From contig OY762492.1 in the NCBI GenBank assembly GCA_963665845.2, positions 2,304,001 to 2,368,000 of the forward strand: a stretch of 64,000 nt of DNA. Reading direction: 5' to 3'. The translations under genes were made by a program, and so were the position numbers. The notes under the pieces were generated by a model. It saw only the letters and a list, made by a program, of their open reading frames with translations, was not told the DNA's origin and made no database searches. Position 1 is the stretch's first letter, and each line of letters opens with the position of its first letter. Positions 1 to 24,575 of the stretch are shown one piece after another. This DNA comes from Candidatus Poribacteria bacterium. GTDB lineage: Bacteria > Poribacteria > WGA-4E > GCA-2687025.

Positions 1-3000
1 CCATAAGGCTAATCGCAACCTTGTCGGCAAGAATACCGGCTGGAACGGCTCCACCGACAATGTGCGGGTTCAGATTCCGACGCTTCCGCGCGGGACATGG
101 ACGCTTGTCGTTCAGCAGGACGGAACAAACGATCCGTTGACCAATGCGCCGCGTCAGGCGACTGCAGACATTTCGGTCACGCCGCGCATCACGCATATCG
201 AAGGCGAAGGCAACCAAGGCAAATGGCCAAAGGCTGTCACGGTGCGCAATGCGGACGATTCGTTCCGGACCTTCAGGGTTCAGGGCAACGGCTTCGAAGC
301 CGGCAGCGCCCTCTCCGTGTACCACACCAACGCGAGCGGCGATGAGTTCACGATCACATCGGGCGGCGCGGTCAACGCCAACGGAACGTTTGATCTGCGG
401 GCGCAGCTTGAGGATTCGGCGCACGGACCTTTCAAACTGTATGTTGCCGACAGCAAGGGCGGCGTTGCGACAGCGAAAGACGCGATTCGGGTCGGACCGG
501 TGATCTTCGTTTCGAAGACCTCCGTGTTAAGGGTACCGGATCCAAATGATACGGAAAAGAATAAGATCCAGATCACCGGCTCCGGTTTCGCGGCGGGCGC
601 GGTCACTTTCCGCTTTAAAAGCGGAGAGAACATGTTCACAGGGACGAGCAGCACGACCGTTATTGTCGGTCAAAAAGTGGTCGCCTTCAAAGGCGCTCTA
701 AACCCGCTCGCGCCGAGTGGGTGGCAGACGATCGTCGCAACCGACAGCACGGGCGCGACGGCGGAAAAGAATATCCTGGTCGCCACCGAGCCAGGAATAC
801 GGTTGACCTTGAATAGGACTGCCGCGCATGTGGGCGATGAGGTGGAGGCGACGGGAACGGGTTACGTTGCGAACACATCTTATCCCGCGCTGTTCGGCGG
901 GAACCCTGTGACCATCACGAGCGCGACCGTCGGGCATTTGCCGACCAACAAGACCTACATTCGGACAGACGGCAACGGCGCCTTCCGCTTTAAAGCGAAG
1001 CTTCCGAATGCGACGAAGGGAACGCAGCAGCCGTTCCGCGTCGGCGCCAACCATGCGGTCGCCCCGATTCAGGTCACCGAGAAGGTGTGGTTGAGCGGCT
1101 CGTTGAACGGCGTTCAAGAGGGCGCTTCCTTCACCGTGAACGGATCAGGCTTTGCGCCGGGCGAGACGCTGGCGCTTGTGTTGGCAATAGAGGGCAACCC
1201 CCCGAACCCGCTTTACTTCTACACGCAATCCGGCGGGACCAGGAACGAAGTGACGACACGGGTGAAGCTTAACGGCGGCGCGGATGTCGGCAGCGTCATC
1301 TGGGACGGCAATGCGAACCGCGGTCCTGGCTTCCGCGCCCGTTCGAACGGCTCTTTCAGCGTGACGATGGAGTCGCCGGGCATCCCTCTGGGCAAATACC
1401 GCGTGGACGTTTTCAAGATGAACACGTCCAAGGGAGGCGCCATTACGTCGACAGGATCCTTGCGGGCGCGGTCGAGCAACACATTCACCTCAAGCGTGAA
1501 AGCGGTTTTGGCGGTCAGCTCCTCCACCGTTTACAACCAGTCGACAGGGGTCGGCGGGAACAACAACGGGCAGCTGTTCATCTCCGGTACCGGCTTCAAG
1601 GCAGGTCAAAATGTGACGGTATCGCTCCCCGGTTGGTCGCAGAATGTGACTCCGGACGCGGACGGCTTCGTGAACACCACCGTGACGGTCACCGGCGCTC
1701 AGTACGGGAACCATGAAATCTCGGCGGCAAGCAACGGCGTGGATCACAACACCTTTAAAAAGCATGGGTACCACGACGCTAAACTCAAAGTGAATGTGGC
1801 GTCGGAGATTGTGGTTGTGCCGTCGACCGCGAGTCCGGGACAGACGGTGACGATCCATGGCTTCGGTTTCGGCAACGACAACCGAGCCAACAAGAACGAC
1901 GAGCAGGTGCGGTTCCGCGCGAACGGCCTGGATATCGGCAGTGCGAAGGGCATCGTCGGCTCCCACGGCCGATTCTTATTCAACTATAGGCTCCCTAATG
2001 CCATCAAGGCCGGCAAAAACCTGACAGGAGTTCCGGGCGGAACGATCGTGGTGCGGGCTGAAGGGCATAGCACGGGCGGCGCCGGCGCCGCCGAGGACAG
2101 CCTGACCATCATTCCGGTGGCGAAGATCAAGAATACGTCGGTTGAGATCGGCGGCGACATCCAGATTGAAGGTTACGGGTTCCCGGCGGGGGCGGCGGTC
2201 CAGCTCTATCTGGATCAGAGCGCCAACGGCAGCGGCGTCTATGAGCTGGGAATAGCGCCCAGCGGCACGGAGAACAAGGCGAACGCGCGCGGCGGACTTG
2301 AAGCGAAAGTGACATCGAAGGCGTTTGTGAATCCGCACATTGCCCGCCATGTCCGGTGGCAGGTGCAGGGGACAGACGCGAATACGGCTGTCGGCGCCGG
2401 CAACACGACGAACACCTACGTAGCGAAGCCGTCCATCACGGTGGATCCGTACACCGGGCGCGGCACCGAGGACATTCAGGTTGTCGGAAAAGGGTTCACG
2501 CCCGGCTCCGCTTTGAGCGTGAAGGTCGGCGCTAACTGGGCGGCCGGGACGAGCGCGTTCTGGCAGAACGTGACGGTCGGGACGATCAACGGCGGCGGCG
2601 CCTCGTTAACTCCCGCCAATACGGGCGACTTCATCGCCCGTTTCAACGCGCCGACGGCTGCATCGCCGGGCAAGACGAAAGTTCATGTCGGCTCCGCGTC
2701 GTCTATCGCGTCGAAAGACTTCATCTACTCCTCGCCTACGGGGACGAAGATGCTGGAGGCCTTCGACGGCAAAAGCGGAGCCCCCGGCACAACGGTGAAG
2801 CTTCGCGGCTGGAACTACGGCAGCTTTGAGTCGGTCGGGCTTCTTCGGATCGACAACAGCGCGCCAACAAATAGTTCGCCGTTGATCCGGGACGCCGTGA
2901 AGCTCGGCGGCGACAGCCGCGGCTGGCAGGCGATCGGCGGTTATATCACCGCGGATGTGAACGGCGTCTTTGAGGTGTCGTTCAAGACGCCTCAATACAC

Positions 3001-6000
3001 GGCGGTTTCGACGAACGGAACGAAGTACATCAACACGCAGAACGGAGCCGCGCCAACGTCCGCCACGGTGACGATCACCTCTACCCTTGCGCGCAGTCCG
3101 CGGGTCGTCTCGCCTGGCTCTACCGTCACATTTACGGGCAGCGGCTTCGGCGCCAATCAGAACCTCGGCAAAGCGACGGTGGTTGGATTCGGGCAGCTGG
3201 GCAAGGAGATCAAGGCAGACGCCAACGGCGTCGTCACCGGCGCGACGTTCAAAATTCCGGACGAGAAAAACAGCGATGGCACCTTTAAAAATGCCAACGT
3301 TTACAACAGAAACATCAATATCACGTCGCCCTCCCTTAGCGGCGGCAACGATAAGAAGGATCTGCATCTTCGGAACGCGGAGGAGATCATTTACTTCTCG
3401 CCGACCAGCGGCGGCTCTGGGACGGTCGTTCGCGTCAAAGCGCGCGGCTTCTTCGCCAATTGGCAAGTGGAAGTTCAATTTGACGGCAAGCATGTCTCGC
3501 CGTATGACGTATTGAGCGGCAAGGTTCATGGCGGTCATTATGTCACGGCGAGCGCCGCTGGCGATCTGGACTTCTACTTCAACGTTCCGCCTTCCGACTC
3601 CGGCGCGCGTGAATTCTGGGTGCGTCAATATCAGCATGGCGACCGGAACAAGAATCATCGTACCAAGCAGCACAAGCGAACCTTCATGGTTGGCGCGATC
3701 ATTGCGGTTCGTCCTTTGAGCCGCGAGGTGGGCGAAGACTTGACGGTGACAGGAACCGGTTTTGGCGCCAATCAAGCTCTGACGGTGAATGTCGGCGGAA
3801 CGGTCATCCAAAAGAACGGCATTGACAGGACGTTCAAAGCCAACGGGGACGGCACCTTCAATGCGAAGTTCAAGGTTCCGGAAGTTCAGGGCGGATTGCA
3901 GACGGTGACGGTGGGCAGCGCGTCCTTCCGGTCGCTCATGGTCAACCCGAACTATACGCTGAGCGGCGTCAGGGCGAAGGTTGACGATCCTTCGACCCCG
4001 TTGATCGCGAGGGTTGACGATCCTTCGACCCCGTTGACCGTCACTGGATACGGTATGGAAGCCGGCACGTCTGTGATGATTTATCTTGACAACGACGATA
4101 AAGACCGGCAGAAGTCGCCACCCCTTCAGGTAGGGTCGAACGGAACGGTGAGCTGGACGTTCCCGACGATCGCGGCGACCTCCTCCGACCGCAGTTACAC
4201 GGCGACGCTGGTTGATTCGGGCGGCAACAGGCACGATGCGGGTACATGGCATGTGGTCAGTACTGCGACTGCGGCAACAGAGACGACGCAGTCCGGGAAA
4301 CTGTTCGGGAACTCCGGCGACGTGGTGACGCTTTCGGCGAAGGGCTTCTCTCGCTATGAGCGTGTGCGGGCGTTGTTCGGCAGCGTCAAGAACGGCATTG
4401 TCACCGGCATTTCCGCGATTGACGGCGAAGGCATTCCGGTGGATGAGAACGGAACGCTTGGCGAAACGAAGGTGCGCGTGCCGAATCTGGCTCCTGGCGC
4501 GACGAAGTTGATCTTGGTCGGACAGGCTTTGAACTCTCAAGGCAAGTTGAACCTGCATCAATGGGACTTTGCGGTCGGCAGCGAAACGAAAGATGTCTTG
4601 ACAGTGGCGCCGGCTATCAACGGCGGCAAGCCTATTTCGGAAGCCAGCCCCGGCGACCGCATCCGCGTTTACATCAATGTCGTCAACACGTTCCAGCCCA
4701 ACGAAGCTGTGACGGTGTACTATGACTACGATCCGGTCAATAAGACCGGCGCGCTGTCTCAGACAACGACAGCGGATCCCAACGGGTCCATACCGGCGGT
4801 CAGGGCGGTGTCGTTCACGGTGCCGGGCGGTCCGGGCGGTATGAAGACCATCGGAGCGGTCGGGGCGAAGTCGGGCGCGGAGCGCAAAGCCGAGTTCACG
4901 GTGATTCCGAAGGTGACGCTGCTGAATCCGTCCCAGTTTGATCTGGGCGATCAGGTTACGATTGACGGCGTCGGCGCCGGCGCGAATCAACCGTTGCAGG
5001 TGGAAATCGCCACCGCGAAGGATAATAATGCAGCGGATGGGTCGGGCGCCGTCTCGACGGTGACGATCGATTCGGGCGCGACCTCGGGCGCGGACGGGCG
5101 GTTCAAGGTAACCTTCCGCGTGCTGAATGCGCTGTATACGAAGAACCCGCAGCCTGTTCGCATCCGCGTCAAAAGTGGAAGCGAGCTGACCTCGCCATGG
5201 TTTGGACGCGCTGCGAAGCTGCAGGTGGTGACGAAGGGCGTTCGGGTGGCGCTGAGACCTGCCGCTGAAGGTCCGGGCGACGCCGTCTTGACGCTGGAAG
5301 GCACCGCCGCCGACTCGGGAGGCAATTCGCGCATTCTTGAGAACATCGGGAATGTGGAGTTGGCGCACGGCTCGATTAACAACGGGCAGCGGCGGAAGAT
5401 GAAATACGAGAACCTTACGGTACTGGACGGTATCGGCACGAGGGAAAAAGACGCCGGCGGGTTTGCGACGATCCGCACCGACTCGAACGGCCGTTTCAAG
5501 GTGCGCGTCAACTTGACGTCGCTGAACGGCGGGAAGCCTGTGCCGAGCGGTCTTGTGACGATCTATGTCGGCGGCGAGCTTGTGACGACCAGTTACACGG
5601 TGACGCCTCAGCTGCGCCTGACGGACGCGGACGACAAGGCGGTCGCGCAGGTGAAACTCGGTCAGGACTACACCTTAAAAGGGATCAGTTTCAGCCGCAG
5701 CCGCGCGGTGACGCTGACCTTGGGCGGCAAGTCGGCGACGGCCTTAGACGTGAAGACGGACAATAACGGCGAGTTCACGGCAACGATGAACTGGGCGGCC
5801 GGCGGCTGGGTCGGCGGAGTTAAGAAACTGACAGCTGCAACGCTGTATGACGATGCAGAGTTGGATTTGACGGTTTTGGGTTCCATCACCGACGTGGAAG
5901 CTGGGACAGCGGTTAAAGTCGGCGATAAAGTCGATGTGTCGGGCAACGGCTTCGGCGCAGAGGAGGCGTTGACCATCACGGTCGGCGGCAACCCTGCGGA

Positions 6001-8230
6001 GGCGACTGAAGGCGGCACAACGAACGCGGACGGAACCTTCACGGCGACGATCGCGATTCCTGACTCATCTTCGGGCGCGAAGGATTTGAGAGTGTCTTCA
6101 GACACGAGCTCCGCGACCGTTACAGGCGCGTATGCGATCGGAACGTCGCTCAGCGCGAAGATGACGAAGGCGGACACGGCGACGGTCGCGGGAACAGGCT
6201 ACCCCGCCGGCAACGTTACCATTATGGTTGCGGGCGAGGCGGATGCGGCAGCGACCGCGGGCGCCAACGGCAGCTTCACGGCGGAGATCGCTTTGACCGC
6301 CGATCGGGATCATGGCTCTTCGGTCGCAGTGACCGCCGGTTCGCAGACCGCCAGCTTCCTATACGATGACACGGCGGAGGCGCAGAACATTGCGGTGTCG
6401 CCGAATCCTGCCGGCTCCGGCAAGACGGTTACGGTGAGCGCGGAGATTGAAGCGGGTTCAACGGCGATGTTCAGCGTCGCAGGCGTTGACGGCGCTTCGG
6501 GCGATCTGGAAGCTGTTGAAGGCGGCGACGCTCCTGACGGCTTCACGGCGGTTGCCGGCATGTATGCGGTCGAGGATAGCGTGAACGTTGCGGACGCTGT
6601 CGTTACGGTGACGGTGACGGACAGCATCGACAACGAGACCATGTATGACAATATGTCGGAGATGAAAGTCCCGACATTGACGATTGACACGATCGCTCCG
6701 ATAGGAACGGCGGCGTTGAGCTCGGAGACGACCCGCAACAATCTGTCCTTCACGATCACGGCGACCTCGGAGGAGTCGGGCTTGACCGCTGCGGCGGATG
6801 TGAGCGCTGTTGACTCGACGAAAGTTGACCCGGTCGCGCTTGCTGAAAGCGATGAGGGCGGCTCCTACTCGGCTGATGTGGTGGTGAGCGGCAAGAACGA
6901 AGCGACGCCGGGCGATAAGACGGTGGTTGTGACGCTGACCGACGCTGCGGGCAACAGCGCCTCTATAGAGGTCGGCATTGAGTTGCGCGCGAACACCGCC
7001 TTCACCGTGAAACTGTATCCTGGGCTGAACCTGATTCATGTTCCGGTGAGCGAGGAAGGGCTGGATCGGGCGAGCGCCCTTTGGGAGAAGATCAACAAAA
7101 GCGGCAACGGCGGCAACATCATCAACGCGATTGTGATGCTGAAATACGCCGACAGTCCGGGAGGGACTCCGAAGTTTGTGTCCTACACAGGCGGCTTGGT
7201 CGGTTCTGCGGTGGATCTTCCGTTGGAGGATTCGACAGGCGTCCTGGTTCTGATGAAGCAGGCGGCGTCGGTCACCTTCACGGGCGGCCCTTTGGAAGCT
7301 TCGGTTCCCTTGCGGAGCGGCATCAACCTGATTGGAGTTCCGCGGGACAGCGACGATGTCTCCATGGCGAGTCATATAGCGGCTCTTGGTCAGCCGGATG
7401 TGGCGATACAGACGTTGGCGTTGAAGCGGGATGACGACGGCAATGTGCAGTTCATTGCGGCGACGCCGAGCAACGATGTTGCCGTGACAGGCGGTCAAGG
7501 GTTCATCGTGGTCGCGTCGGGTCCGTGGGCTTTGACGATGCCGGGCGCTCCGTGGGAGAACGCTGCTGCGCCGTCTACCGCGGCGTCCGCGGAGCATCTG
7601 CTCCCGACATCCACGCCGTTGCTGGTGGTGGAAGGTTCGCTGGCTCGCGAGGACACCTTGGCGGCTCTGAACGGGCTGGAGGTGTCGGTGACGAACCTGC
7701 GGACGGGTCAAAAGGCGACGGAGCGGGTCGGTTCGACCTCCGGCAACGGACGCTTCTCGGCGGCAATGATCGACCTCAAAGGCGGGCGTTATGAGGCGTC
7801 CGATCAGTTTGAGGTTCAGGTTGTGGATCCGAGCGGCGTCTTCGGCGGCTTCCCGGCGCGGCGCATCGTTTTCGATGAAAAGAGCGTTGTGAGCGGTCGG
7901 GTGGATCTGGGTCAGCTGTTGTTGAGCGCGGTTCCGGACTATTCGGCTCTGCTGCCGAACTATCCGAACCCGTTCAACCCAGAAACCTGGATTCCGTTCC
8001 AGTTGGCAGAGTCGAGCCGCGTGACGGTGACGGTCTACAACGCCGCTGGTCAGACGGTTCGCGTGTTGGAGTTGGGTCAGCTTCCGGCAGGGACCTACCA
8101 TAGCCGTTCCAAGGCGGCGTATTGGGATGGTCGGAACGCGCTGGGCGAGCGGGTCGCAAGCGGTTTGTATTTCTACCGCATTGAAGCGGGCTCGTTCAGC
8201 CAGCTGCGTCGGATGGTGATCCTGAAATAG
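1..8230 (+). CDS. Giant secreted surface protein (5'-truncated, >2740 aa): tandem IPT/TIG-like Ig repeats and a C-terminal T9SS type A / FlgD-Ig-like sorting domain
   Basis: The frame is open from position 2 (HKANRNLVGKNTGWNGSTDNV...), so the GTG at 62 is not the true start. Roughly 15-20 'G.GF..G..V' beta-sandwich repeats. It ends 'LLPNYPNPFNPETWIPFQL...YWDGRNALGERVASGLYFYRIEAG...RRMVILK'. Confidence 0.9.
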   Translation, partial: HKANRNLVGKNTGWNGSTDNVRVQIPTLPRGTWTLVVQQDGTNDPLTNAPRQATADISVTPRITHIEGEGNQGKWPKAVTVRNADDSFRTFRVQGNGFEAGSALSVYHTNASGDEFTITSGGAVNANGTFDLRAQLEDSAHGPFKLYVADSKGGVATAKDAIRVGPVIFVSKTSVLRVPDPNDTEKNKIQITGSGFAAGAVTFRFKSGENMFTGTSSTTVIVGQKVVAFKGALNPLAPSGWQTIVATDSTGATAEKNILVATEPGIRLTLNRTAAHVGDEVEATGTGYVANTSYPALFGGNPVTITSATVGHLPTNKTYIRTDGNGAFRFKAKLPNATKGTQQPFRVGANHAVAPIQVTEKVWLSGSLNGVQEGASFTVNGSGFAPGETLALVLAIEGNPPNPLYFYTQSGGTRNEVTTRVKLNGGADVGSVIWDGNANRGPGFRARSNGSFSVTMESPGIPLGKYRVDVFKMNTSKGGAITSTGSLRARSSNTFTSSVKAVLAVSSSTVYNQSTGVGGNNNGQLFISGTGFKAGQNVTVSLPGWSQNVTPDADGFVNTTVTVTGAQYGNHEISAASNGVDHNTFKKHGYHDAKLKVNVASEIVVVPSTASPGQTVTIHGFGFGNDNRANKNDEQVRFRANGLDIGSAKGIVGSHGRFLFNYRLPNAIKAGKNLTGVPGGTIVVRAEGHSTGGAGAAEDSLTIIPVAKIKNTSVEIGGDIQIEGYGFPAGAAVQLYLDQSANGSGVYELGIAPSGTENKANARGGLEAKVTSKAFVNPHIARHVRWQVQGTDANTAVGAGNTTNTYVAKPSITVDPYTGRGTEDIQVVGKGFTPGSALSVKVGANWAAGTSAFWQNVTVGTINGGGASLTPANTGDFIARFNAPTAASPGKTKVHVGSASSIASKDFIYSSPTGTKMLEAFDGKSGAPGTTVKLRGWNYGSFESVGLLRIDNSAPTNSSPLIRDAVKLGGDSRGWQAIGGYITADVNGVFEVSFKTPQYTAVSTNGTKYINTQNGAAPTSATVTITSTLARSPRVVSPGSTVTFTGSGFGANQNLGKATVVGFGQLGKEIKADANGVVTGATFKIPDEKNSDGTFKNANVYNRNINITSPSLSGGNDKKDLHLRNAEEIIYFSPTSGGSGTVVRVKARGFFANWQVEVQFDGKHVSPYDVLSGKVHGGHYVTASAAGDLDFYFNVPPSDSGAREFWVRQYQHGDRNKNHRTKQHKRTFMVGAIIAVRPLSREVGEDLTVTGTGFGANQALTVNVGGTVIQKNGIDRTFKANGDGTFNAKFKVPEVQGGLQTVTVGSASFRSLMVNPNYTLSGVRAKVDDPSTPLIARVDDPSTPLTVTGYGMEAGTSVMIYLDNDDKDRQKSPPLQVGSNGTVSWTFPTIAATSSDRSYTATLVDSGGNRHDAGTWHVVSTATAATETTQSGKLFGNSGDVVTLSAKGFSRYERVRALFGSVKNGIVTGISAIDGEGIPVDENGTLGETKVRVPNLAPGATKLILVGQALNSQGKLNLHQWDFAVGSETKDVLTVAPAINGGKPISEASPGDRIRVYINVVNTFQPNEAVTVYYDYDPVNKTGALSQTTTADPNGSIPAVRAVSFTVPGGPGGMKTIGAVGAKSGAERKAEFTVIPKVTLLNPSQFDLGDQVTIDGVGAGANQPLQVEIATAKDNNAADGSGAVSTVTIDSGATSGADGRFKVTFRVLNALYTKNPQPVRIRVKSGSELTSPWFGRAAKLQVVTKGVRVALRPAAEGPGDAVLTLEGTAADSGGNSRILENIGNVELAHGSINNGQRRKMKYENLTVLDGIGTREKDAGGFATIRTDSNGRFKVRVNLTSLNGGKPVPSGLVTIYVGGELVTTSYTVTPQLRLTDADDKAVAQVKLGQDYTLKGISFSRSRAVTLTLGGKSATALDVKTDNNGEFTATMNWAAGGWVGGVKKLTAATLYDDAELDLTVLGSITDVEAGTAVKVGDKVDVSGNGFGAEEALTITVGGNPAEATEGGTTNADGTFTATIAIPDSSSGAKDLRVSSDTSSATVTGAYAIGTSLSAKMTKADTATVAGTGYPAGNVTIMVAGEADAAATAGANGSFTAEIALTADRDHGSSVAVTAGSQTASFLYDDTAEAQNIAVSPNPAGSGKTVTVSAEIEAGSTAMFSVAGVDGASGDLEAVEGGDAPDGFTAVAGMYAVEDSVNVADAVVTVTVTDSIDNETMYDNMSEMKVPTLTIDTIAPIGTAALSSETTRNNLSFTITATSEESGLTAAADVSAVDSTKVDPVALAESDEGGSYSADVVVSGKNEATPGDKTVVVTLTDAAGNSASIEVGIELRANTAFTVKLYPGLNLIHVPVSEEGLDRASALWEKINKSGNGGNIINAIVMLKYADSPGGTPKFVSYTGGLVGSAVDLPLEDSTGVLVLMKQAASVTFTGGPLEASVPLRSGINLIGVPRDSDDVSMASHIAALGQPDVAIQTLALKRDDDGNVQFIAATPSNDVAVTGGQGFIVVASGPWALTMPGAPWENAAAPSTAASAEHLLPTSTPLLVVEGSLAREDTLAALNGLEVSVTNLRTGQKATERVGSTSGNGRFSAAMIDLKGGRYEASDQFEVQVVDPSGVFGGFPARRIVFDEKSVVSGRVDLGQLLLSAVPDYSALLPNYPNPFNPETWIPFQLAESSRVTVTVYNAAGQTVRVLELGQLPAGTYHSRSKAAYWDGRNALGERVASGLYFYRIEAGSFSQLRRMVILK
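3979..4037 (+). repeat. In-frame 33-bp-period tandem duplication (VDDPSTPL x2)
   Basis: ggttgacgatccttcgaccccgttga at 3979-4004 and 4012-4037. Confidence 0.9.
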
Positions 8231-8247
8231 GCGTCTTATGCGGGCTG

Positions 8248-8281
8248 ACGGGAGAGGCGGGGCTTGTTCCTCCTCTCCCGT
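8248..8281 (+). terminator. Stem-loop after giant gene 1 (possible terminator, weak U tract)
   Basis: acgggagagg (8248-8257) pairs with cctctcccgt (8272-8281). Confidence 0.6.
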
Positions 8282-8551
8282 TGCCTTGTAATTGGCGAGG
8301 CGAAGGAATATACTTGAAACGCCGGCAGTTTTGTCGCATGATATGGAGCGGTAGGCAGCGTCGCTGTTGTGTCGAATAAAAAGGTAGCATTCGAAAGCGA
8401 TGCGTTGTATGCTGTATGTGTGTTCGGGTTTTGGCGGCAGGCGTCGGGACGGTAGGAGAGCGGATTTGACGACATTTCATTTTCAGAGTTTGAACAACAA
8501 TTTTTGTAGGGTACGATCATGACAAGACCCCTTGTTTTATGGAGGCAACGG

Positions 8552-14500: not shown

Positions 14501-17500
14501 GTCACGCCGGACGGCGCGGCTGGAATGCGGCCCTTGAGCATCAACCGCGCGCCTGAACCTGTTTCAGATGTGACGGTAGAAGCGATCAACGGCGCGACTC
14601 ATTATATAGATGAGAGCGGCGCGGTTGTGACGACGAACGCCAACGGCGAAGGTTCCTTGTCGCTGACAGCGGAAGCGATGGACGGCGGCGAGGACATCTA
14701 CGACCGCACCAGCGTTGTCTTCCAAATCCGTCCGGTCACCGGCGAGCCGACCGTTGACTTCTGGACGACGATTAACATCCCCACGAGCGTGACGCCGCTC
14801 ATGGACGGCTTGGCGAACGACGAGTTCGTGCCGCTGCTCGCCTATGTGAATCAGATTGCAGGCGGGAACGGATTGCTCGGACGCATCGGACCTGAACCTG
14901 TCCGCACGGAGATGCTGGACTATCCGCAGGTCGGCAGCTACCAGATTCGGGCGATTTCCATTGACCAGTTCAGCAACCTGAGCATGTCGAATCCACAGGC
15001 GGTTGAGGTTGTTCCGCGCACGGTTGGCGAGTTCAATGTGTCCAGTCTGGGCATCGGGAACTTGAAAGGCAACGAAGCGGAACGTTATATCTCCGCCGAG
15101 GTGCCGGAAGACGGCTCGGTCGCCGCGGACGATTTCCGCATCTGGTCGGACACGACGCAGTTGGAACTGATGATACGCAGTTTGCGGGATGTTACTATTC
15201 CGTTGACGAGCGCGACGATCCAAAGCTCGACAGACGGCGGAGCCACTTGGACAGACCTGAAAATGTATGACGAGGCTGCTTTGGCGGATGTGGACGCATC
15301 TTGGATGTCGGACATGACCTCTCATATGATCGACGGCGTTCAGCTCGCGACGGACGGCGTGACGGAATACCGCCTGCGCGTTGCGGCGGAGAATAGGCTG
15401 ACAATCAGCGGCGTCGGACCTGAAACGGTCTTGGTTGTGGATGTCTTGCCGATACCGGTTACGCCGGAGGTTCTGGCGTTTGCGTCAGCGCAGGCTGAAG
15501 GAACGTCGGTCAGCCCGGACAGCGGCGGGGCGCGCGATCAGCTGGTGTTGACGGTTGATACGCCGTTCAACATGCTGCCGAAAGCGCCCTCGGTTGTGAT
15601 TGAAATCAGCGCGGACGGCGGACAAACGTTCATGCCGCTTGCGATGGAGATGGGCGGTCCCGAAGCGGGAACGATCTCTGCAGACGACCACACAGCGGCT
15701 GACGGAATGCCTGAAATCGGCGTGAACCGCACCACCTGGACGGCGGTCTGGGACACGACGATGGCGGCTGACACGGTTGAAAATATGGAACCGGAAGCGC
15801 GCGACGCTTCTATGGACGACAACCCGTATATCGTCCGCGCGTCTCTGATGGGAGAAGGCGGCACGGCGTATCTGTCCGAAACGCTGACGATCCCTGTCGA
15901 CAATGTGGACGATGTCCCGCCGCTCTCTTCAACGGTTGTGACGCTGGTGGAACGCGAAGCGAAGGCGCCGGGAACCTTTGAAGCGGTGGACGCGAATGAG
16001 GACGGCTCCTACACGGTTCGCTCCGATGTTCGCATCACGGCGAGCGTGACGGCGGGCTATCTGACGATTGAGGGAGGCGATGTCGCGCTGGTCGTTGTGG
16101 ATGAAAGCGGCGCCGTGATGGAAATGCTGGGCGACGCGGCTCCTGTGGCGGAAGGTCAAGAGAGTTACAGCTTTGAGTTTGACTCGACGATGTTCCCGAA
16201 CGGAGCTTTGCGCCTTGCCGTTCTCGCGACGGACGCCTCCGGGAATCAAGAGTTGACCGTGATGGATACGACGGTGGTCGCCAACATCGCCAACATTCTG
16301 ATTGGCGGGCTGCTGCCGGACGATCCGGGCGTGTATGAGTTGATTCGCATCACGCAGACGGGCGCCTTGATGACCGACCGCACCTTTGCGACGGATCAAG
16401 CTGATCGGCCGATTGGCGGAACGGCGCTGTTTGAGCTGGACACCGAAAACGCGATGACGGCTCAAGCCTACATCTCCGCCAACATGGCGGATCTGATGGA
16501 CGAGGCGCTTGCTGACGCGACGCCGATGGAGGCGGTGGGCGAGAACGGCGCCTTCCAGTTGCCGTTGGATGTGAGCGGCTTGGCGGACGGCGAATACTAT
16601 GTGCGTATCGTCCTTGCCGCCAGCCCGAACGTGTTTGCGCCGCTGGCGCCGGTTGCGTTCACCGTTGACAACACGGCTCCTCCGCTTACGATTGAGGCGC
16701 CGGCTTCTGGAACAGCGGTCAATACGCGGCCGACGATCGTCTCGGAAGGTTATGAAGACCCGACGGGCATCGTGACGGTTGGGCTGACGCTTTCTGCGAA
16801 CGGCTCGGAAGTCTTCACAGGCTTTGCGGGCGGGAACGCGGATATGCGGCTCGCCGGCAACGAAGACCTTGTGAACGCCGACGGCATGACGACAGACGGT
16901 CTCATGTTTGCGGCTCCGCAGATCAGCTACATAACGCCGAGCGATGTTCGCCATCCGAGCGGCAGCTACGTAGCGACGGGAACCGCGACCGACTATGCGG
17001 GGAATGTCGCTGTCGTGAGCGCTGTTTATGTGATTGAACAGGATGCGACGGCTCCGACCGTTAGCGCGTATTCGCCGACAGGCGTCATCGCGACGCGAAC
17101 GCCGACGGTGAGAGTTTCCTTCACAGAAGACAACTCCGGCGTGACCGCCGAGGGCGTTTCTATACAGGTGAGCGACAACGAAGGCAATGCGGTTGCGGGA
17201 ACGACGACCCTGCAGACGATTCCGCTGCATCTGGGCGACGACGCTACCGCAGACGACATACTGGATGCATTGAATTCGTCCGACGTTATGGACGAGCTGC
17301 AGCAGGGCGACGGACCGCAATTGAGCGGCATCGTTAGCTTCATCGCAGACGAAGACCTTGCGAACGGCGCCTACAGCGTCGTCGCGAGCGTCGCGGACGC
17401 TGAAGGCAACGCCGCGCCTGTATCGTGGGAGTTCACGGTCTATGTGGACGACAACCCGCCCGTCATCACCGAGTTCTCGCCGTCCGGAACCATCGAAACG

Positions 17501-20500
17501 GCGGATACGACGCTGAGCGCGACCTTCTATGACGAGTTGGAAGTGACGAGCGTGACCTTCACGGTTGACGGCGGCGAGCCGATGGACGCTGACGCGATTG
17601 TTGACAACACCTCAGCAACGCTGGCGGTGACGGGACTTTCCGACGGCGCCCATACAGTGGTTGTAACAGCAACCGACGCGCTTGGAAATGTCGGCTCTGG
17701 GCAGTTCACCTTCACGGTCTCGTTGGATCTGGAGCCGCCGGTTATCACGGCGTTCTCCCCGACGGGCGTTGTAGAGATGCCTGATACGACGTTGGCGGCG
17801 ACCTTCTTGGACGAATCCGAGGTGGTGAGCGTGACCTTCGCGGTTGACGGCGGCGAGGCGATGGACGCGGACGCAATCGCGGACAACACCTCGGCGACGC
17901 TGGCGGTGACAGGGCTTGCCGACGGCGATCATACGGTCGTTGTGACGGCGACGGATGAGCATGGGAATGTCGGCTCTGCCGAGTATCAGTTCACGGTGTC
18001 GTTGGATCTGGAGGCTCCGGTCATCACGACGGTTTCTCCGACGGGCGTTGTTGAGATGCCTGATACAACGTTGGCGGTTGCCTTCTCGGACGAATCCGCT
18101 GTGACAAGCGTGACCTTCGCCGTTGACGGCGGCGACGCCATGGACGCTGCGATTGCGGACGACAACACTTCCGCGACGCTGGCGGTGACAGGGCTTGCCG
18201 ACGGCGATCATACGGTCGTAGTGACGGCGACGGACGAGCATGGGAATGTCGGCTCTGCCGAGTATCAGTTCACAGTGTCGTTGGATCTGGAGCCGCCTGT
18301 CATCACGACGGTTTCTCCGACCGGCGTTGTTGAGATGCCCGATACGACATTGGCGGTCGCCTTCTCGGACGAATCCGCGGTGACAAGCGTGACCTTCGCC
18401 GTTGACGGCGGGGACGCGATGGACGCCGCGATTGCGGACGACAACACCTCGGCGACGCTGGCGGTGACCGGACTTGCCGACGGCGATCATACGGTCGTTG
18501 TGACCGCGACGGATGAGCATGGGAATGTCGGTTCCGCCGAGTATCAGTTCACGGTGTCGTTGGATCTGGAGGCTCCTGTCATCACGACGGTTTCTCCGAC
18601 CGGCGTTGTTGAGATGCCTGATACAACGTTGGCGGCTGCTTTCTCGGACGCTTCCGCTGTGACAAGCGCGACCTTCGCCGTTGACGGCGGGGACGCGGTG
18701 GACGCTGCGATTGCGGATGACAACACTTCCGCGACGCTGGCGGTGACAGGACTATCCGACGGCGATCATACGGTCGTTGTGACCGTGACGGACGAACATG
18801 GGAATGTTGGCTCTGCCGAGTATCAGTTCACGGTGTCGCTGGATCTGGAGGCTCCGGTCATCACGACGGTTTCTCCGACCGGCGTTGTTGAGATGCCTGA
18901 TACGACGTTGGCGGCGACCTTCTCAGACGCCTCGGCGGTGGTGAGCGTGACCTTCGCAGTGGATGGCGGCGACGCCGTTGACGCTGCGGCGATTGCGGAC
19001 AACACCTCGGCGACGCTGGCGGTGACTGGACTTGCCGACGGCGATCATACGGTCGTAGTGACGGCGACGGATGAGCATGGGAATGTCGGCTCTGCCGAGT
19101 ATCAGTTCACGGTGTCGCTGGATCTGGAAGCGCCGGTCATCACGACAGTGTCGCCTACAGGAACGGTGGAATCTGCCGATACAACGTTGGCGGCGACCTT
19201 CTCGGACGCCTCCGAGGTGGACAGCGTGACCTTCTCGGTTGACGGCGGAGCCGCCCAAGACGCGGCGAGCATCGCGGACAACACGATGGCGCGGCTGCCT
19301 GTGACGGGTCTTTCCGACGGCGAACATACGGTTGTTGTGACGGCGACGGATGAACATGGCAATGTCGGCTCGGCGGAATACCTGTTCACGGTATCGCTGG
19401 ACACGGCGGCGCCGGTCATCACATCCATCTCCCCGACAGGGGTTGTCCGAACGGCTGACACGACGCTGGCGGTCAACTTCTTTGACGACTCTGAGGTGGA
19501 CAGCGTGACCTTCGCCGTTGACGGCGGAGCCGCCCAAGACGCGGCGGACATCATCGACAACTCGCGGGCGCATCTGCCGGTGGACGGGCTTTCGCAAGGA
19601 AGCCATACGGTGGTTGTGACGGCGACCGATGAACATGGGAATAAGGCGTCGGCTCAATTCAGCTTCTTGGTTGAGATCGACATGATCCCGCCGACGATCG
19701 CAACGACGGCTCCCACAGGATATGTGCGGTCGCTGCGGCCGCTCATCTCGGCGACCTTCACCGACAACCTTGCCGGCGTGGACGCCGACAGCGTTGAGCT
19801 GATGGTCAACGGAAATGCTGTGAACGCCGATGCAACCGACTCGAGCGTCTCGTATCAGCCCAGCGCGGATCTGGCGACAGGAACGCATGAAGTGACGCTG
19901 ACGCTTGCGGACGCGCTCGGAAACGAAACGTCGACAAGCTGGACATTCACAATTGAAACCACGCCTCCGAGCATCTGGCCGGCCGCTCCGGTGGACGGCG
20001 CGCGCGTCGGCAAGAATGTGGCGGCGCGGACAGATGTGGTTGTGAGCGCCTACTACACCGATGCCGATTCGGGCATTGATGTGGATTCGGTTGAGCTGAC
20101 CGTGACTCGGAACGGCAACCGCGTAGCGGGAACGATTGAAAGCAAGACGGAATCGGGCGTCGCATGGAAAGCGCAGAATGTGCTGCGAGCCGGCATCTAC
20201 ACGGTGACGGTCTCGGTCGCAGACAATCTGGGCAACGCGACGGAGCATTCCTGGAGCTTCATCGTTGAAGAGGAAGAGGCGATCACCATACCGGTTCGCG
20301 TCGTTCCGAACCCGTTTGAAAAAGATGTGGCTGTCTGGGTCGGTCTCGGCAAAGAAGCCGAAGTGCGGGTTCGCATCTACGACCTGAACGGACGGCTTGT
20401 GGCAGAGCGCCCGGGACAGATACTGCTTCCGGGACGCCATGCGATCAACCTGACTGAAGAGACCTGCAACTACGGACGCGGCGTTTACATCTGCCAAGTG

Positions 20501-20563
20501 ATTGTGGACGCGGCGGATCGGGAGCGGGTTGTCAAGATCGTCAAGATGGCGAAAATCAGATAA
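8552..20563 (+). CDS. Giant acidic adhesin-like protein (~4000 aa): signal peptide, invasin/Big_1-like and PKD-like domains, tandem 93-aa Ig repeats, divergent T9SS-like C-terminal domain
   Basis: GGAGG at 8541 precedes ATG 8552 (ORF track starts at 8519). Sec signal '...IAAIGLVFGSAATAAAQ'. Big_1-like 'ADGASTAVVTATL...DGTYTATFTAG'. PKD-like 'WEFPDG...YSVTLTVTD'. It ends 'VVPNPF...VRIYDLNGRLV...GVYICQV...KIVKMAKIR'. Confidence 0.92.
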   Translation: MRDFQSYFKTAVVWIAAIGLVFGSAATAAAQFSNFKVTVSLTDREGNAATGLNVVFQNTSAPEGSQAAQEQDLSEDASTPGSYSVTLTDLDIGGIFKQVLIPKEGDVVSIRATQTVGGVTSPWSTLQRTITKAELDAGETNIAMTESGLTVEFEEADVRGDGVSTATLVVTVVDASGNLIDDADLTATTTAGSVGAFTSVGSGKHEAVFNAPLTSQDVTAEVTVTYGADSGKATINIIGVPANITVSVDPTELVADGASTAVVTATLTREGEAVVNETVTIEATLGTVGDVTNNEDGTYTATFTAGTTAGTAEITVTASAGDTGEASLTLTPGAPAGIVASVDPTQIRGDSITTATFTATIADANGNPVSGLENVTATLTGGGSIGDVADAGDGTYTAVYTSPLVKEDAVATVEFAYAALTPASATLTVTGEPDAEATILVVKGLATYLDRSHAAPNGLSVLVENVTKDSSVTSATGDDGLGRYSATFFDLANPNAVVASSNDLIRVTVTDPESNQSTVVERRLTADEVNATIVDIDVETNLKATASEFLVAGTVQYSDGTAAVLPGAGLRVEVSIGEAVQGQPLNEAPNGVFSIQFAGPTFEVATGDLINITVYDIDNNVVATGSQFTFIASSAQVIGGEIDLGDIQTTVDAHTASLKVIGSLKYNDGAAGILPREQLTAIVTVGADRKDPLSIDSPMGDFEVSFLDAQSAAKTGDLVSIEVLKNGDVVASMSRQITSQEVIDGAFNFNDVVTSLPAMSGGTGLLIVSGTVTADVEIPDGSMVLVTNLHRGDTSTSSPVTITNGKYSAVLQSSNVGAPNLGDVAETGDVLLIEVLDPDGVVLAANETVLDSMAVVLGAMTGANVQVTGVVIALTIGGDPVDANSSHQTQYDANGVASATVVATVSGSVSAGELTFDSGGVGSFEPLDGNTRTFSTVYADEMYFSSDRGLVTITVSAGDKASRTVTLNVVDIDDPVINSITPEGPMALIGEEETLTADVEDNTAVASIVWEFPDGTTQSGMAATKSFDEVARYSVTLTVTDVANNEVTRTKTIDVLDLRFSTASDQVEYDENGVATVAVTIEAEGPAGIIDFGDSVYTLTLTDGVSDDTDDFTKTYESDADLGDHTLTATVTNEDGQTVIQSVTVELVDLIAPTAELTSVAEPLELVGQPVDVSVTVVENTEIASIEWRADGEVLESRAPTAEEIESGVFAYTYMQEGDDPAPALVNVTFHVTDTSDNTNDADTPISVPITFVDVEFSAESLEVPYDADGVASTAMTIVVNGPDGVVTPESAGLTMALTPDDLFPDLETFSKTYASAEDLGEHEVTLTITSEAGEQIVKMLTLTLVDHIYPMVTLTSTAEPLKEAGQSVMVSVDVVENTEIRGIEWRVDGVAVEIRKPEAGETAFSYTYTQDDPAPAAVEVSFHTADTSRNRNDDSESADATPINVPITFVEVEFSAKVPDPDPSTEAHEVYYDADGVASLDMTIVMELPAGVTLTTALAPEDLFIDDTFSNTYEAPEDIRDQLVSLTIAKSGEEIVKELTLALRDMIPPTVSPIAADSTNSAGEPFILTNRDLTLSASASDNTEILTVEWVFPDGTVEGALDAEGNTSVTRVFTEPGDFTVTLRVVDAGGNESTSETMVTVRRVEVGGLALDLRGASEIIVALLQSPLVSDLLAENGLPTIPQLLGDNPTTADVLQLLNSPEIMAALQQAGLTLPGLPAMLNPVIIPDDEDLYLENFGNALSVPHLEVWDNLSGVADGSYRIEKGLTLTGHKLSLFAVAPKAMEVIVTLHGSDGMTYPVSGMSAEGTGTFQHEFAVDEELFLATLPAWPASDSSPIQEVTLRLSTNGMEGPYRSVPLTKEMRTVGGYAEPVWSATDTLDAGKTHYYYYVVEMTHQIPVGGGKRTAKMLVIPDPRNLQMEPTIDIASLTIEDLQNVANTGRVPLVSKFSTPSAEGLWTFDFDLSQIPDGDYQVTVTVDGEDGFVTPDGAAGMRPLSINRAPEPVSDVTVEAINGATHYIDESGAVVTTNANGEGSLSLTAEAMDGGEDIYDRTSVVFQIRPVTGEPTVDFWTTINIPTSVTPLMDGLANDEFVPLLAYVNQIAGGNGLLGRIGPEPVRTEMLDYPQVGSYQIRAISIDQFSNLSMSNPQAVEVVPRTVGEFNVSSLGIGNLKGNEAERYISAEVPEDGSVAADDFRIWSDTTQLELMIRSLRDVTIPLTSATIQSSTDGGATWTDLKMYDEAALADVDASWMSDMTSHMIDGVQLATDGVTEYRLRVAAENRLTISGVGPETVLVVDVLPIPVTPEVLAFASAQAEGTSVSPDSGGARDQLVLTVDTPFNMLPKAPSVVIEISADGGQTFMPLAMEMGGPEAGTISADDHTAADGMPEIGVNRTTWTAVWDTTMAADTVENMEPEARDASMDDNPYIVRASLMGEGGTAYLSETLTIPVDNVDDVPPLSSTVVTLVEREAKAPGTFEAVDANEDGSYTVRSDVRITASVTAGYLTIEGGDVALVVVDESGAVMEMLGDAAPVAEGQESYSFEFDSTMFPNGALRLAVLATDASGNQELTVMDTTVVANIANILIGGLLPDDPGVYELIRITQTGALMTDRTFATDQADRPIGGTALFELDTENAMTAQAYISANMADLMDEALADATPMEAVGENGAFQLPLDVSGLADGEYYVRIVLAASPNVFAPLAPVAFTVDNTAPPLTIEAPASGTAVNTRPTIVSEGYEDPTGIVTVGLTLSANGSEVFTGFAGGNADMRLAGNEDLVNADGMTTDGLMFAAPQISYITPSDVRHPSGSYVATGTATDYAGNVAVVSAVYVIEQDATAPTVSAYSPTGVIATRTPTVRVSFTEDNSGVTAEGVSIQVSDNEGNAVAGTTTLQTIPLHLGDDATADDILDALNSSDVMDELQQGDGPQLSGIVSFIADEDLANGAYSVVASVADAEGNAAPVSWEFTVYVDDNPPVITEFSPSGTIETADTTLSATFYDELEVTSVTFTVDGGEPMDADAIVDNTSATLAVTGLSDGAHTVVVTATDALGNVGSGQFTFTVSLDLEPPVITAFSPTGVVEMPDTTLAATFLDESEVVSVTFAVDGGEAMDADAIADNTSATLAVTGLADGDHTVVVTATDEHGNVGSAEYQFTVSLDLEAPVITTVSPTGVVEMPDTTLAVAFSDESAVTSVTFAVDGGDAMDAAIADDNTSATLAVTGLADGDHTVVVTATDEHGNVGSAEYQFTVSLDLEPPVITTVSPTGVVEMPDTTLAVAFSDESAVTSVTFAVDGGDAMDAAIADDNTSATLAVTGLADGDHTVVVTATDEHGNVGSAEYQFTVSLDLEAPVITTVSPTGVVEMPDTTLAAAFSDASAVTSATFAVDGGDAVDAAIADDNTSATLAVTGLSDGDHTVVVTVTDEHGNVGSAEYQFTVSLDLEAPVITTVSPTGVVEMPDTTLAATFSDASAVVSVTFAVDGGDAVDAAAIADNTSATLAVTGLADGDHTVVVTATDEHGNVGSAEYQFTVSLDLEAPVITTVSPTGTVESADTTLAATFSDASEVDSVTFSVDGGAAQDAASIADNTMARLPVTGLSDGEHTVVVTATDEHGNVGSAEYLFTVSLDTAAPVITSISPTGVVRTADTTLAVNFFDDSEVDSVTFAVDGGAAQDAADIIDNSRAHLPVDGLSQGSHTVVVTATDEHGNKASAQFSFLVEIDMIPPTIATTAPTGYVRSLRPLISATFTDNLAGVDADSVELMVNGNAVNADATDSSVSYQPSADLATGTHEVTLTLADALGNETSTSWTFTIETTPPSIWPAAPVDGARVGKNVAARTDVVVSAYYTDADSGIDVDSVELTVTRNGNRVAGTIESKTESGVAWKAQNVLRAGIYTVTVSVADNLGNATEHSWSFIVEEEEAITIPVRVVPNPFEKDVAVWVGLGKEAEVRVRIYDLNGRLVAERPGQILLPGRHAINLTEETCNYGRGVYICQVIVDAADRERVVKIVKMAKIR
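17447..19678 (+). repeat. Eight tandem 279-bp (93-aa) coding repeats, with more diverged copies on both sides
   Basis: Units 'D..PPVIT..SP.G...GL.DG.HTVVVTATD..GN' start at 17447, 17726, 18005, 18284, 18563, 18842, 19121 and 19400, an exact 279-bp period. Confidence 0.95.
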
Positions 20564-20571
20564 CAAGGAAC

Positions 20572-20604
20572 GCGGGGGCTGCGCAAACAGCCCCCGCCCC
20601 TTTC
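20572..20604 (+). terminator. GC-rich intergenic stem-loop (attenuating terminator or mRNA-stabilising hairpin)
   Basis: gcgggggctg (20572-20581) pairs with cagcccccgc (20588-20597), followed by a short T run. Confidence 0.6.
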
Positions 20605-20635
20605 ACCTTCGCGCAGAGATACATAGGAGCGTCTG

Positions 20636-21634
20636 ATGATTGACGGAAGAAAATGGGCAAAGTTAGCCGCGTTTGCGCTCGCAACGTCGGCACTGATTGG
20701 ATACGCCGCTGTGGCAACAGCGCAGGACGACACGGCAGGGACGCGGCATGGAGCCTCATGGCTCTTCCCAGGGCAAGGCGCCCGGGCAACCGCTCTCCAA
20801 GCGTTCTCGCCCCTCGCCGGCGGCGTTCCAGCAATCACCACCAACCCCGCGGGGCTGGGCGGAAGCGCCAACACTGAACTGGCGATATACACACAAGACA
20901 GCCCGCTGGATATTCGACGAAACGCCTTCGGGATCGCGCTCGGATACATAGGCGGAGAAAACGGTTCGCTGGGAATTTCATGGCGAAATGTGAGCGTCGG
21001 AGACAGCGACGCCGCCCCCTTTGAACGCACCGACCTACAAGGACAAACGCACGGTTCACTCGGCTATGCCAGCAACGCCATCGACTTGGCGTATGGACAT
21101 ACCGTCAACGAGATGTTTGGGTTCGGACTGGGCGTCGGAATGGTGTTTGACAAGTTCGACGGCGTGGACGATGCATACCCTGACGACGCCAGCGCTTCCG
21201 GGTTCGGCGGCGTGACGCTCGGCGTTCAGGGGCTGATCGCCGATACGGTCCACTACGGGCTGTCGGCGCGGAACCTCGGCGGGACGCTCGGAGAAGGCGA
21301 AATCGCGCCGACCGTTTCGGCGGGCGTCGCGGTGACCTATCCGTCCTACGACGGCGTCCTGATGGCTGCTGAAGTTGAGCAGCTGCTGGTGAACCTCATC
21401 AACGCGGACGGCGAAGTGACGCGGGTTGTCAAATTCGGCGTCGAATACTCCCTAAATCCGGTCAGCCTGAGACTCGGAACGAGCCAAAGCTCCGACCGCA
21501 GCGCGTGGTATACCGGCCTCGGCGTCAACTTCGGCTCGTTGGCGTTGGATTATGCCTACCAGTTGAGCAATGAAGCGGCGAGCAGCCTTGAGGAAGTTCC
21601 CCGGCACTTTGTTTCCATCGGCTACCAGTATTGA
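20636..21634 (+). CDS. PorV/PorQ (FadL-like, UPF0164) family outer-membrane beta-barrel
   Basis: Signal peptide; family motif 'GARATALQAFSPLAGGVPAITTNPAGL'; alternating beta-strands; 'LDYAY...HFVSIGYQY' beta-signal; AGGAG RBS at 20625. Confidence 0.8.
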   Translation: MIDGRKWAKLAAFALATSALIGYAAVATAQDDTAGTRHGASWLFPGQGARATALQAFSPLAGGVPAITTNPAGLGGSANTELAIYTQDSPLDIRRNAFGIALGYIGGENGSLGISWRNVSVGDSDAAPFERTDLQGQTHGSLGYASNAIDLAYGHTVNEMFGFGLGVGMVFDKFDGVDDAYPDDASASGFGGVTLGVQGLIADTVHYGLSARNLGGTLGEGEIAPTVSAGVAVTYPSYDGVLMAAEVEQLLVNLINADGEVTRVVKFGVEYSLNPVSLRLGTSQSSDRSAWYTGLGVNFGSLALDYAYQLSNEAASSLEEVPRHFVSIGYQY

Positions 21635-21669
21635 TGAGCCGCAGACCGACGAGAGAGAAGGAGTTTCAT

Positions 21670-22449
21670 ATGATGAAGCGTAAAGGTTTTCAAACGATCG
21701 CGGCTGTCGCGCTTGCGCTGGCGGTTGGCGCCCCTCTGTTTGCGGGGATGTACGAAACCCTGACCGTGAAAAAAGGCGACACGTTGTGGGATCTTTCCGT
21801 AGAGCATCTTGGCGACGCGCTGCGCTTTCCGGAATGGGTTGAAATCAACGATCTGCGTTCCGGCGATCCGCACTGGATCTATCCGGGCGAGGTGCTGAAT
21901 ATCCCTGGGACCGTCGCGGAGCCAGAGCCGGAGCCTGTACCGGCGGTGGAAGTGCCGCTTCCAAGAGTTGAGGAGATGCTGAACGACTTGAGCGCGCGGC
22001 TTTCCAAAGCTCATGAGGAACTGGCGGCTCTCCGCGAAGAGCTGGAGCATGTTGACAGCCATCTTCATGACAAAGATTTCGAAGACCTGATGAAGAAACT
22101 GGATTCCATCCATCCGATGGATCTGAGCTCCATTGAGAAGAGAATCAGCCAGCTCAGCAAGACGATCTCTTCAAAGGTGGATAAGCTGTCGAACAGGACC
22201 CAAGAGCAGCATAAATGGACAAAGGGCGAGCTGCAGTCCTTGACAAAGGAACTGGCGACTCTCATGAGCGCCGTTGAGAAGCATGAGACGACTCGTCAAA
22301 AGGCGGTGGAAGAGCTTGCCGCAAAAATGATGGAACTGCACGCGCCGGTGAATCCGATCGGCGAAGTCCATCAGAATAAGCGCACGATCGGGGTGCTGTC
22401 GTTCTTGGCAGCCAGCGTTGCGCTGATGGTGGTGACGGCAACTCGCTAA
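21670..22449 (+). CDS. LysM peptidoglycan-binding protein with signal peptide, Pro/Glu linker, long coiled coil and C-terminal TM helix
   Basis: AAGGAG before ATG 21670 (ORF track starts at 21631). LysM 'TVKKGDTLWDLS...IYPGEVLNIP'; 'EPEPEP' linker; heptad region; C-terminal 'IGVLSFLAASVALMVV'. Confidence 0.85.
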   Translation: MMKRKGFQTIAAVALALAVGAPLFAGMYETLTVKKGDTLWDLSVEHLGDALRFPEWVEINDLRSGDPHWIYPGEVLNIPGTVAEPEPEPVPAVEVPLPRVEEMLNDLSARLSKAHEELAALREELEHVDSHLHDKDFEDLMKKLDSIHPMDLSSIEKRISQLSKTISSKVDKLSNRTQEQHKWTKGELQSLTKELATLMSAVEKHETTRQKAVEELAAKMMELHAPVNPIGEVHQNKRTIGVLSFLAASVALMVVTATR

Positions 22450-22476
22450 CCATAAAATTGACATCGTTGAACTTGG

Positions 22477-22512
22477 AAACGGGTAGGCCGCATCTGGTCT
22501 GCCCGTTTTTTT
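22477..22512 (+). terminator. Rho-independent terminator closing the surface-protein operon
   Basis: aaacgggtaggcc pairs with ggtctgcccgttt, followed by a T7 tract. Confidence 0.8.
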
Positions 22513-22518
22513 ATACCT

Positions 22519-24572: not shown

Positions 24573-24575
24573 CCG

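What the first reader, a model, noticed from the sequence alone, without database searches (positions are those of the whole stretch)
1..22512. T9SS-like surface-display locus outside Bacteroidota: two giant CTD cargoes, a PorV-like shuttle and a LysM tether
Seen: four co-directional genes closed by one terminator, namely two giant Ig-repeat proteins with T9SS-type C-terminal domains, a PorV/PorQ-motif barrel and a LysM-coiled-coil-TM protein. Known: in Porphyromonas and Flavobacterium, type A CTD cargo exits through SprA/Sov and is handed to PorV, powered by PorLM/PorKN. Inference: this probable Poribacteria genome uses a T9SS-related pathway with a locus-encoded shuttle and possibly different periplasmic parts. 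No SprA, PorU or motor genes are in this window.
Basis: partly seen in the sequence, partly recalled or inferred. Interest (0 to 1): 0.8.

Follow-up and report, generated by a model that had tools for sequence, protein, structure and literature searches.

The report
Motor-less type IX export in Poribacteria
Poribacteria keep, across almost the whole phylum, a gene unit for a giant tailed protein, its own PorV-like outer-membrane barrel and a LysM rod, plus the pore, sortase-like protease and regulator of type IX secretion but no detectable motor, so they likely run a variant of an export system thought to belong to Bacteroidota and their allies.

Summary
Observation confirmed. The four co-directional genes end at a terminator (z -4.1). 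The genome is Ca. Poribacteria.

Elsewhere in the genomes lie an SprA homologue (150 of 151), PorU-like C25 proteases (46 of 46) and a PorX (31 of 31, one in this window). GldL, GldM and GldN were not found in 46-61 genomes, though no positive control rang.

Best reading: a T9SS variant in which this operon displays one giant Ig-repeat protein on its own shuttle barrel, like the type B cargo-PorP-PorE unit but built from a type A tail, a PorV-family barrel and a TsaP-like LysM rod. Binding and the tether are inferred; no complex model could be run.

It answers a question left open by Kamke 2014. The scan found the same triad before in another Poribacteria genome (e1-9532661).

The parts
2..8230 (+). 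Cargo1, 3' part of a 3960-aa protein with a signal-peptide-like start and the genome's common type A tail (aa 3872-3958); accessory member of the operon
   Evidence: a homologue lies upstream of cargo2 in 11 of 14 relatives with enough sequence, and not in 3 of 3 from family f4
8519..20563 (+). Cargo2, 4014-aa acidic (pI 4.05) Ig/PKD/invasin-repeat protein with eight motifs spaced exactly 93 aa apart and a divergent type A-like tail; conserved partner of the barrel
   Evidence: relatives 1965-5452 aa; tail upstream of the barrel in 28 of 29 relative loci, the 29th cut by a contig end
20572..20597 (+). G+C-rich hairpin between cargo2 and the barrel, without a U run on the + strand; role unknown
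   Evidence: z -3.06, 1 of 200 shuffles
20636..21634 (+). PorV-family 14-strand outer-membrane barrel; likely dedicated shuttle and anchor for cargo2
   Evidence: single copy in 146 of 151 genomes; one clade, 99/99
21631..22449 (+). Signal peptide, TsaP-like LysM, coiled coil of conserved length, C-terminal hydrophobic helix; probable start ATG 21670; likely peptidoglycan-bound spacer
   Evidence: adjacent to the barrel in 144 of 144 genomes with both
22475..22512 (+). Intrinsic-terminator-like hairpin with U run
   Evidence: z -4.08, 0 of 200 shuffles
30493..32046 (-). PorX, the T9SS response regulator (receiver plus PglZ domain); same system, separate locus
   Evidence: NF052313 554.7 bits, cut-off 300; 31 of 31 genomes; near the operon in G000 and G008, far from it in G014
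32043..33551 (-). Histidine kinase directly upstream of porX; possible partner kinase, not shown to be PorY
   Evidence: no PorY model among the 25 best families shown

Best explanation
This is a conserved Poribacteria operon for a giant Ig-repeat protein with a type IX-style tail, a PorV-family barrel and a LysM-coiled-coil protein, and it likely displays that protein on the cell surface through a type IX secretion variant with no detectable GldLM/GldN motor. Steps: (1) cargo2 would cross the inner membrane by Sec (signal-peptide-like start seen, export inferred). (2) Its tail would enter the genome's single SprA homologue (gene shown, pore inferred). (3) The co-encoded barrel likely collects it at the pore's lateral gate and keeps it anchored, as PorP/SprF barrels do for type B cargo (inferred from homology, gene order and joint loss). 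(4) The LysM rod likely binds peptidoglycan and holds the unit in place, as PorE does; direct contact with the barrel is the weakest step, about 0.4. (5) Cargo1 and the other 46 proteins with the uniform tail likely use a general PorV paralogue and may be processed by the PorU-like proteases. The energy for cargo release is not identified.
Confidence: 0.63

Rival explanations
1. It is an ordinary T9SS whose GldLM motor and GldKN ring have diverged beyond the reach of Bacteroidota-trained profiles; the operon is then a normal cargo-shuttle-anchor unit.
For: No positive control rang for GldN or GldL_N. FGE-domain proteins that hit the C-terminal half of GldK occur in 31 of 46 genomes. Release from SprA needs energy in F. 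johnsoniae (PMC10994853).
Against: The same library detects SprA, PorU-like, PorV-family and PorX here. GldM_1st 0 of 61 over cut-off (4 weak hits; the one inspected is a coiled-coil protein), GldM_4th 0 of 46, GldL_N 0 of 46, GldN 0 of 61, GldK 0 of 46 over cut-off. G000's two GldK hits cover only the FGE part.
Confidence: 0.15
2. The barrel is the general shuttle for all tailed cargo, and cargo2 and the LysM protein are structural parts of the secretion machine itself.
For: Single copy and near-universal in the phylum; cargo1, with the common tail, is often in the same operon; PG1035 was proposed as a cap of PorP (PMC9143113).
Against: Three genomes, one in two contigs and 96% complete, lack the triad but keep SprA. 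Other paralogues score higher on PorV models, and one sits directly after a PorU-like gene in G000 and G044.
Confidence: 0.13
3. The barrel is a FadL-type transporter or a platform like the FadL-fold subunit of the Bacteroidota BAM complex, unrelated to tail-dependent export; the genes are co-expressed envelope genes.
Against: No FadL chain appears by sequence at E up to 1. All 27 rows hit PorV/PorQ models. The barrel stays next to a tailed gene and is lost with it.
Confidence: 0.06

Closest known systems
PG1035-PorP-PorE complex of Porphyromonas gingivalis and the type B cargo-porP/sprF-porE gene sets of Flavobacterium johnsoniae (PMC9143113, PMC12618676)
   Same: Tailed cargo gene, then its own FadL-family barrel, then a peptidoglycan-binding protein; several barrel paralogues per genome, some paired with a cargo.
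   Different: The tail scores as type A, not type B (28 of 28 versus 2 of 28 weak). The barrel scores as PorV family, not PorP. The third gene is a LysM-coiled-coil-helix protein, not a TPR-WD40-OmpA lipoprotein.
T9SS core of Bacteroidota: SprA/Sov, PorV, PorU, type A CTD, GldLM, GldKN, PorXY (PDB 6H3I, 6ZA2; PMC10994853)
   Same: SprA homologue, PorV-family barrels, PorU-like C25 proteins, TIGR04183 tails and PorX are present across the phylum.
   Different: GldL, GldM, GldN and full-length GldK not found; PorZ matched only through its tail; SprA homologue is about 2200 aa with no conserved neighbours in 16 loci; PorU-like proteins are about 2000 aa, mostly in 2-3 copies.
TsaP of type IV pili (PDB 3JC8, 6VE2)
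   Same: The LysM domain is closest to TsaP's among solved LysMs. That TsaP ties an outer-membrane secretin to peptidoglycan is recalled.
   Different: The match covers only the LysM; the rest is a coiled coil and a hydrophobic helix. The likeness may reflect a common LysM subtype.
TIGR04183-tailed proteins of Poribacteria (Kamke et al. 2014, PMC3909097)
   Same: Same phylum and tail family.
   Different: That paper found no structural genes of the system. One of its genomes (WGA-3G, contig prefix ASZN01) holds the operon barrel and the SprA homologue.

Membership tests
Type IX secretion system (Bacteroidota) | SprA/Sov homologue in the genome | tested here: met
   Pfam SprA_N 36.6 over 27; TIGR04189 181.7, under 200; hhalign 98.4%, 1159 columns; PDB sequence searches blank
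Type IX secretion system (Bacteroidota) | 36-strand barrel fold of SprA | not tested
   The folding machine was busy for this alignment
Type IX secretion system (Bacteroidota) | Cargo with type A C-terminal domain | tested here: met
Type IX secretion system (Bacteroidota) | PorV-family shuttle | tested here: met
   5 of 13 NF033709 matches in G000 are over the cut-off; neither of two paralogues tested reaches the PorV equivalog cut-off
Type IX secretion system (Bacteroidota) | PorU sortase | tested here: inconclusive
   C25 proteins with His/Cys motifs, best PDB hit PorU, but best stretches 235 and 220 bits against a cut-off of 420
Type IX secretion system (Bacteroidota) | GldL/GldM motor | tested here: inconclusive
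   Not found in 46-61 genomes; no positive control genome
Type IX secretion system (Bacteroidota) | GldK/GldN ring | tested here: inconclusive
   GldN 0 of 61; GldK only FGE-part hits, 0 of 46 over cut-off; control record blank
Type IX secretion system (Bacteroidota) | SprE/PorW, PorG, PorT, A-LPS attachment | not tested
   Only PorZ was searched, in G000: tail-only hits
PorV/PorQ family (NF033709), window barrel | Score over the curated cut-off | tested here: not met
   50.8 against 90; orthologues reach E 4.5e-39 and NCBI names one 'PorV/PorQ family protein'
PorV/PorQ family (NF033709), window barrel | 14-strand FadL-type barrel with N-terminal plug | tested here: met
PorV/PorQ family (NF033709), window barrel | Binds a CTD | not tested
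PorP/SprF shuttle with type B cargo | TIGR03519 match for the barrel | tested here: not met
   0 of 27 rows at E up to 0.01; other paralogues give weak hits, 0 of 41 genomes over cut-off
PorP/SprF shuttle with type B cargo | TIGR04131 tail on the cargo | tested here: not met
   2 of 28 rows, best E 0.012
PorE | Lipoprotein with TPR, WD40 and OmpA-like domains | tested here: not met
   LysM, coiled coil and helix instead
PorX (NF052313) | Score over the curated cut-off | tested here: met
   554.7 against 300

The most novel reading that the evidence does not exclude
Poribacteria run a complete type IX translocon-shuttle-sortase system with no GldLM/GldKN energy chain. The SprA-PorV-CTD core would then work with another energy source or none, and could predate Bacteroidota gliding, against the proposal that T9SS arose as part of the gliding machine (PMC12635249). 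The operon would be a new surface-anchoring unit in which a LysM rod of fixed length ties a cargo-loaded barrel to the cell wall.
Probability: 0.45. Interest if true: 0.85.

Novelty: new variant of a known kind. Interest (0 to 1): 0.68.

Why it matters
Reviews confine T9SS to Bacteroidota (PMC12618676) or the FCB group (PMC11205867). Kamke 2014 saw the tails in Poribacteria, found no machinery and left the route open; the machinery is in nearly every genome searched, including one of theirs. Because cargo release in F. johnsoniae needs the motor (PMC10994853), a phylum-wide system without a detectable one makes two questions testable: what powers release, and whether the pore is older than gliding. 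It also gives a likely export route for the many repeat proteins of these sponge symbionts (61 tailed proteins in this genome) and names one conserved giant surface protein as a target for imaging.

Tried and rejected

Positive control for the motor searches: the Parabacteroides record behind L076 has sprA but no GldN match, so it could not serve. Protein atlas for the LysM protein: no usable hit.

Triad outside Poribacteria: the metagenome scan kept 80 loci; 78 match only the LysM domain, and 2 (L096, L137) are full-length with the barrel upstream, taxon not given. The genome scan returned 76 of 80 loci named Poribacteria and 4 unnamed. Both used short patterns drawn from Poribacteria, so they do not show absence elsewhere.

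Conserved neighbours of sprA that might be replacement parts: none in 16 loci. MotA/ExbB hits in G000: 4, none next to T9SS-like genes. The weak GldL hit lies in a Zorya-like cluster. A twin-Cys tail as in SprF: no conserved Cys, 3 of 27 barrels have any mature Cys. Promoter-like sites in 8000-27000 are at chance level, 5 against 4.9.

RNA cover falls to 0-2 after 22592 and is patchier on a control stretch (21, 27, 12, 13 of 30 bins against 28, 28, 26, 27), but these are contigs of one study, from relatives, and cannot rank genes or show one transcript.
Full report
1. The observation. The window is G000:C1:2304001-2368000, in a genome of 3.98 Mb, 90% complete. Cargo1 begins 3.65 kb before the window and is 3960 aa; its tail passes TIGR04183 and FlgD_ig, and its body gives only weak TIG hits. 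Cargo2 is 4014 aa and acidic, with Big, PKD and invasin domains and eight motifs spaced 93 aa apart. Its tail passes TIGR04183 alone (29.8 bits) but not within the whole protein (21.6). A terminator-like hairpin follows the LysM gene (z -4.08) and a second hairpin lies between cargo2 and the barrel (z -3.06). A member of the barrel's 90% cluster is named from Ca. Poribacteria, and 76 of 80 related loci are titled Poribacteria.

3. Conservation. Of 151 genomes drawn from the phylum, the barrel orthologue is single-copy in 146 and the LysM query matched in 145 (the G004 match is LysM-only and unrelated). In 144 of 144 genomes with both, the barrel lies directly upstream. G001 and G006, missed by the single query, hold the full triad; G006 is of another class. 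A tailed gene precedes the barrel in 28 of 29 relative loci, the last being cut off; in G140 one unrelated gene is inserted between them. Twelve operon barrels form one clade against 13 paralogues, 99/99. G078, G093 and G128 lack barrel, LysM and the cargo2-type tail but keep SprA; all three are of one genus, so this may be one loss. G002 and G004 also lack the barrel orthologue. Cargo1 is accessory: present upstream in 11 of 14 relatives with enough sequence, absent in the 3 from family f4.

4. The rest of the machine. One 2205-aa gene at C1:935094-941711 matches TIGR04189 in five collinear stretches, 181.7 bits as a protein against a cut-off of 200, passes Pfam SprA_N and aligns to Parabacteroides SprA at 98.4% over 1159 columns. 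It occurs in 150 of 151 genomes. Against this, its last 500 or so residues do not align and two PDB sequence searches missed SprA. Two C25 proteins have PorU as best PDB hit and keep the His and Cys motifs; C25 proteins occur in 46 of 46 genomes. G000 has 13 PorV-family matches, 9 of them nearly full-length and 5 over cut-off, and 61 tailed proteins: 47 with a uniform tail, none beside a barrel, and 14 divergent, 6 beside one (seeds were chosen partly for that adjacency). A PorX over its cut-off lies in this window and in 31 of 31 genomes.

5. The motor. GldM_1st 0 of 61 over cut-off, GldM_4th 0 of 46, GldL_N 0 of 46, GldN 0 of 61. GldK gives only FGE-part hits, 0 of 46 over cut-off. No control genome with a known motor was at hand, so this is 'not found', not 'absent'. 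That Bacteroidota-trained models do detect SprA, PorU-like, PorV and PorX here makes a plain miss less likely.

6. The LysM protein. Among solved LysM proteins the best hits are TsaP. The stretch from LysM to the hydrophobic helix is 158-237 aa, median 170, in 28 rows that share only 19-37% identity with the window protein, which suggests a spacer of set length (inference). Basic residues precede the helix, so whether it sits in the inner or outer membrane is open.

7. Expression. Contigs of four RNA runs from one study, mostly 90-99% alike, cover 26-28 of 30 bins and bridge each gene junction; a control stretch has 12-27 of 30. This fits transcription in relatives and shows no more.

8. Mechanism. 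In Bacteroidota, type B cargo genes are followed by their own shuttle barrel, which keeps them on the surface, and PorE links PorP to peptidoglycan (PMC9143113, abstract and discussion read; PMC12618676, abstract and introduction read). The Poribacteria operon has the same logic with other parts. I therefore read it as a display unit for cargo2: Sec export, entry into the SprA homologue, capture and retention by its own barrel, and a LysM rod on the wall. Genes, order and homology are shown; export, binding and tether are inferred. One result weakens the idea of a separate tail class: without family f1, the cargo2-tail profile does not rank this genome's cargo2 tail among its top 13 of 61.

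9. What is known. Kamke 2014 (PMC3909097, passages read; its Table S9 not read) reported TIGR04183 tails and stated that structural genes were not found. Its genome WGA-3G holds the barrel and the SprA homologue. Lauber 2024 (PMC10994853, passages) shows that loading needs no energy but release does. Liu 2025 (PMC12635249, passages) proposes that T9SS arose within gliding. T9SS tails are reported in Fibrobacter (PMC6851124, passages), and one review extends the system to the FCB group (PMC11205867, passages). Six searches listed no paper describing SprA, PorV or this operon in Poribacteria; I saw only the top of the longer lists, and subscription papers are not covered. NCBI already names some of these barrels PorV/PorQ family. 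The scan noted the same triad in another Poribacteria genome and motor-less systems in other phyla; I formed my reading before that look-up and tested the triad myself.

10. Verdict. Real, conserved and not a known arrangement: a new variant of type IX secretion. Confidence 0.63 in the full mechanism, higher (about 0.85) that it is a T9SS-related route. Interest 0.68.

Noticed in passing
window 30493-33551 (-): PorX over its NCBIfam cut-off with a histidine kinase directly upstream, 8 kb from the operon; one or two copies in 31 of 31 genomes.
   Followed up: partly
G000:C1:1858843-1865773 (L187) and L080:2-4553: A PorU-like gene directly followed by a PorV-family gene in two genomes; these two barrels group together (99/96). 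Candidate for the general shuttle and attachment pair.
   Followed up: partly
G000:C1:1315914-1326741: Zorya-like cluster with three ZorA-like and four ZorB-like genes, judged from helix patterns and weak MotA hits; the name is recalled and no defence library was scanned.
   Followed up: no
G000:C1:2371984-2378228: ExbB-ExbD-ExbD cluster after a 1164-aa protein, with no evident TonB, 4-10 kb beyond the window; an untested candidate energiser.
   Followed up: no
G000 contigs C2 and C3: Both are 97% copies of stretches of C1; the C3 copy of the PorU-like gene is in pieces, probably assembly error or a second strain.
   Followed up: partly
window near 33650, 35800, 39100, 43800, 53650: Short intergenic repeat; one 10-mer occurs 424 times on C1 counting both strands.
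   Followed up: no
G000:C1:1216269-1221206, 1291087-1292997; L082, L083, L092: DUF6785-DUF6784 membrane proteins lie beside PorV-like, PorU-like or SprA-like genes in several genomes; G000 has 7 copies on C1, so chance is possible.
   Followed up: no
G000:C1:2940669-2942888: 739-aa protein with a PorV-like N-terminal barrel and a long C-terminal extension that may end in a wall-binding domain; a possible fused barrel and tether.
   Followed up: no
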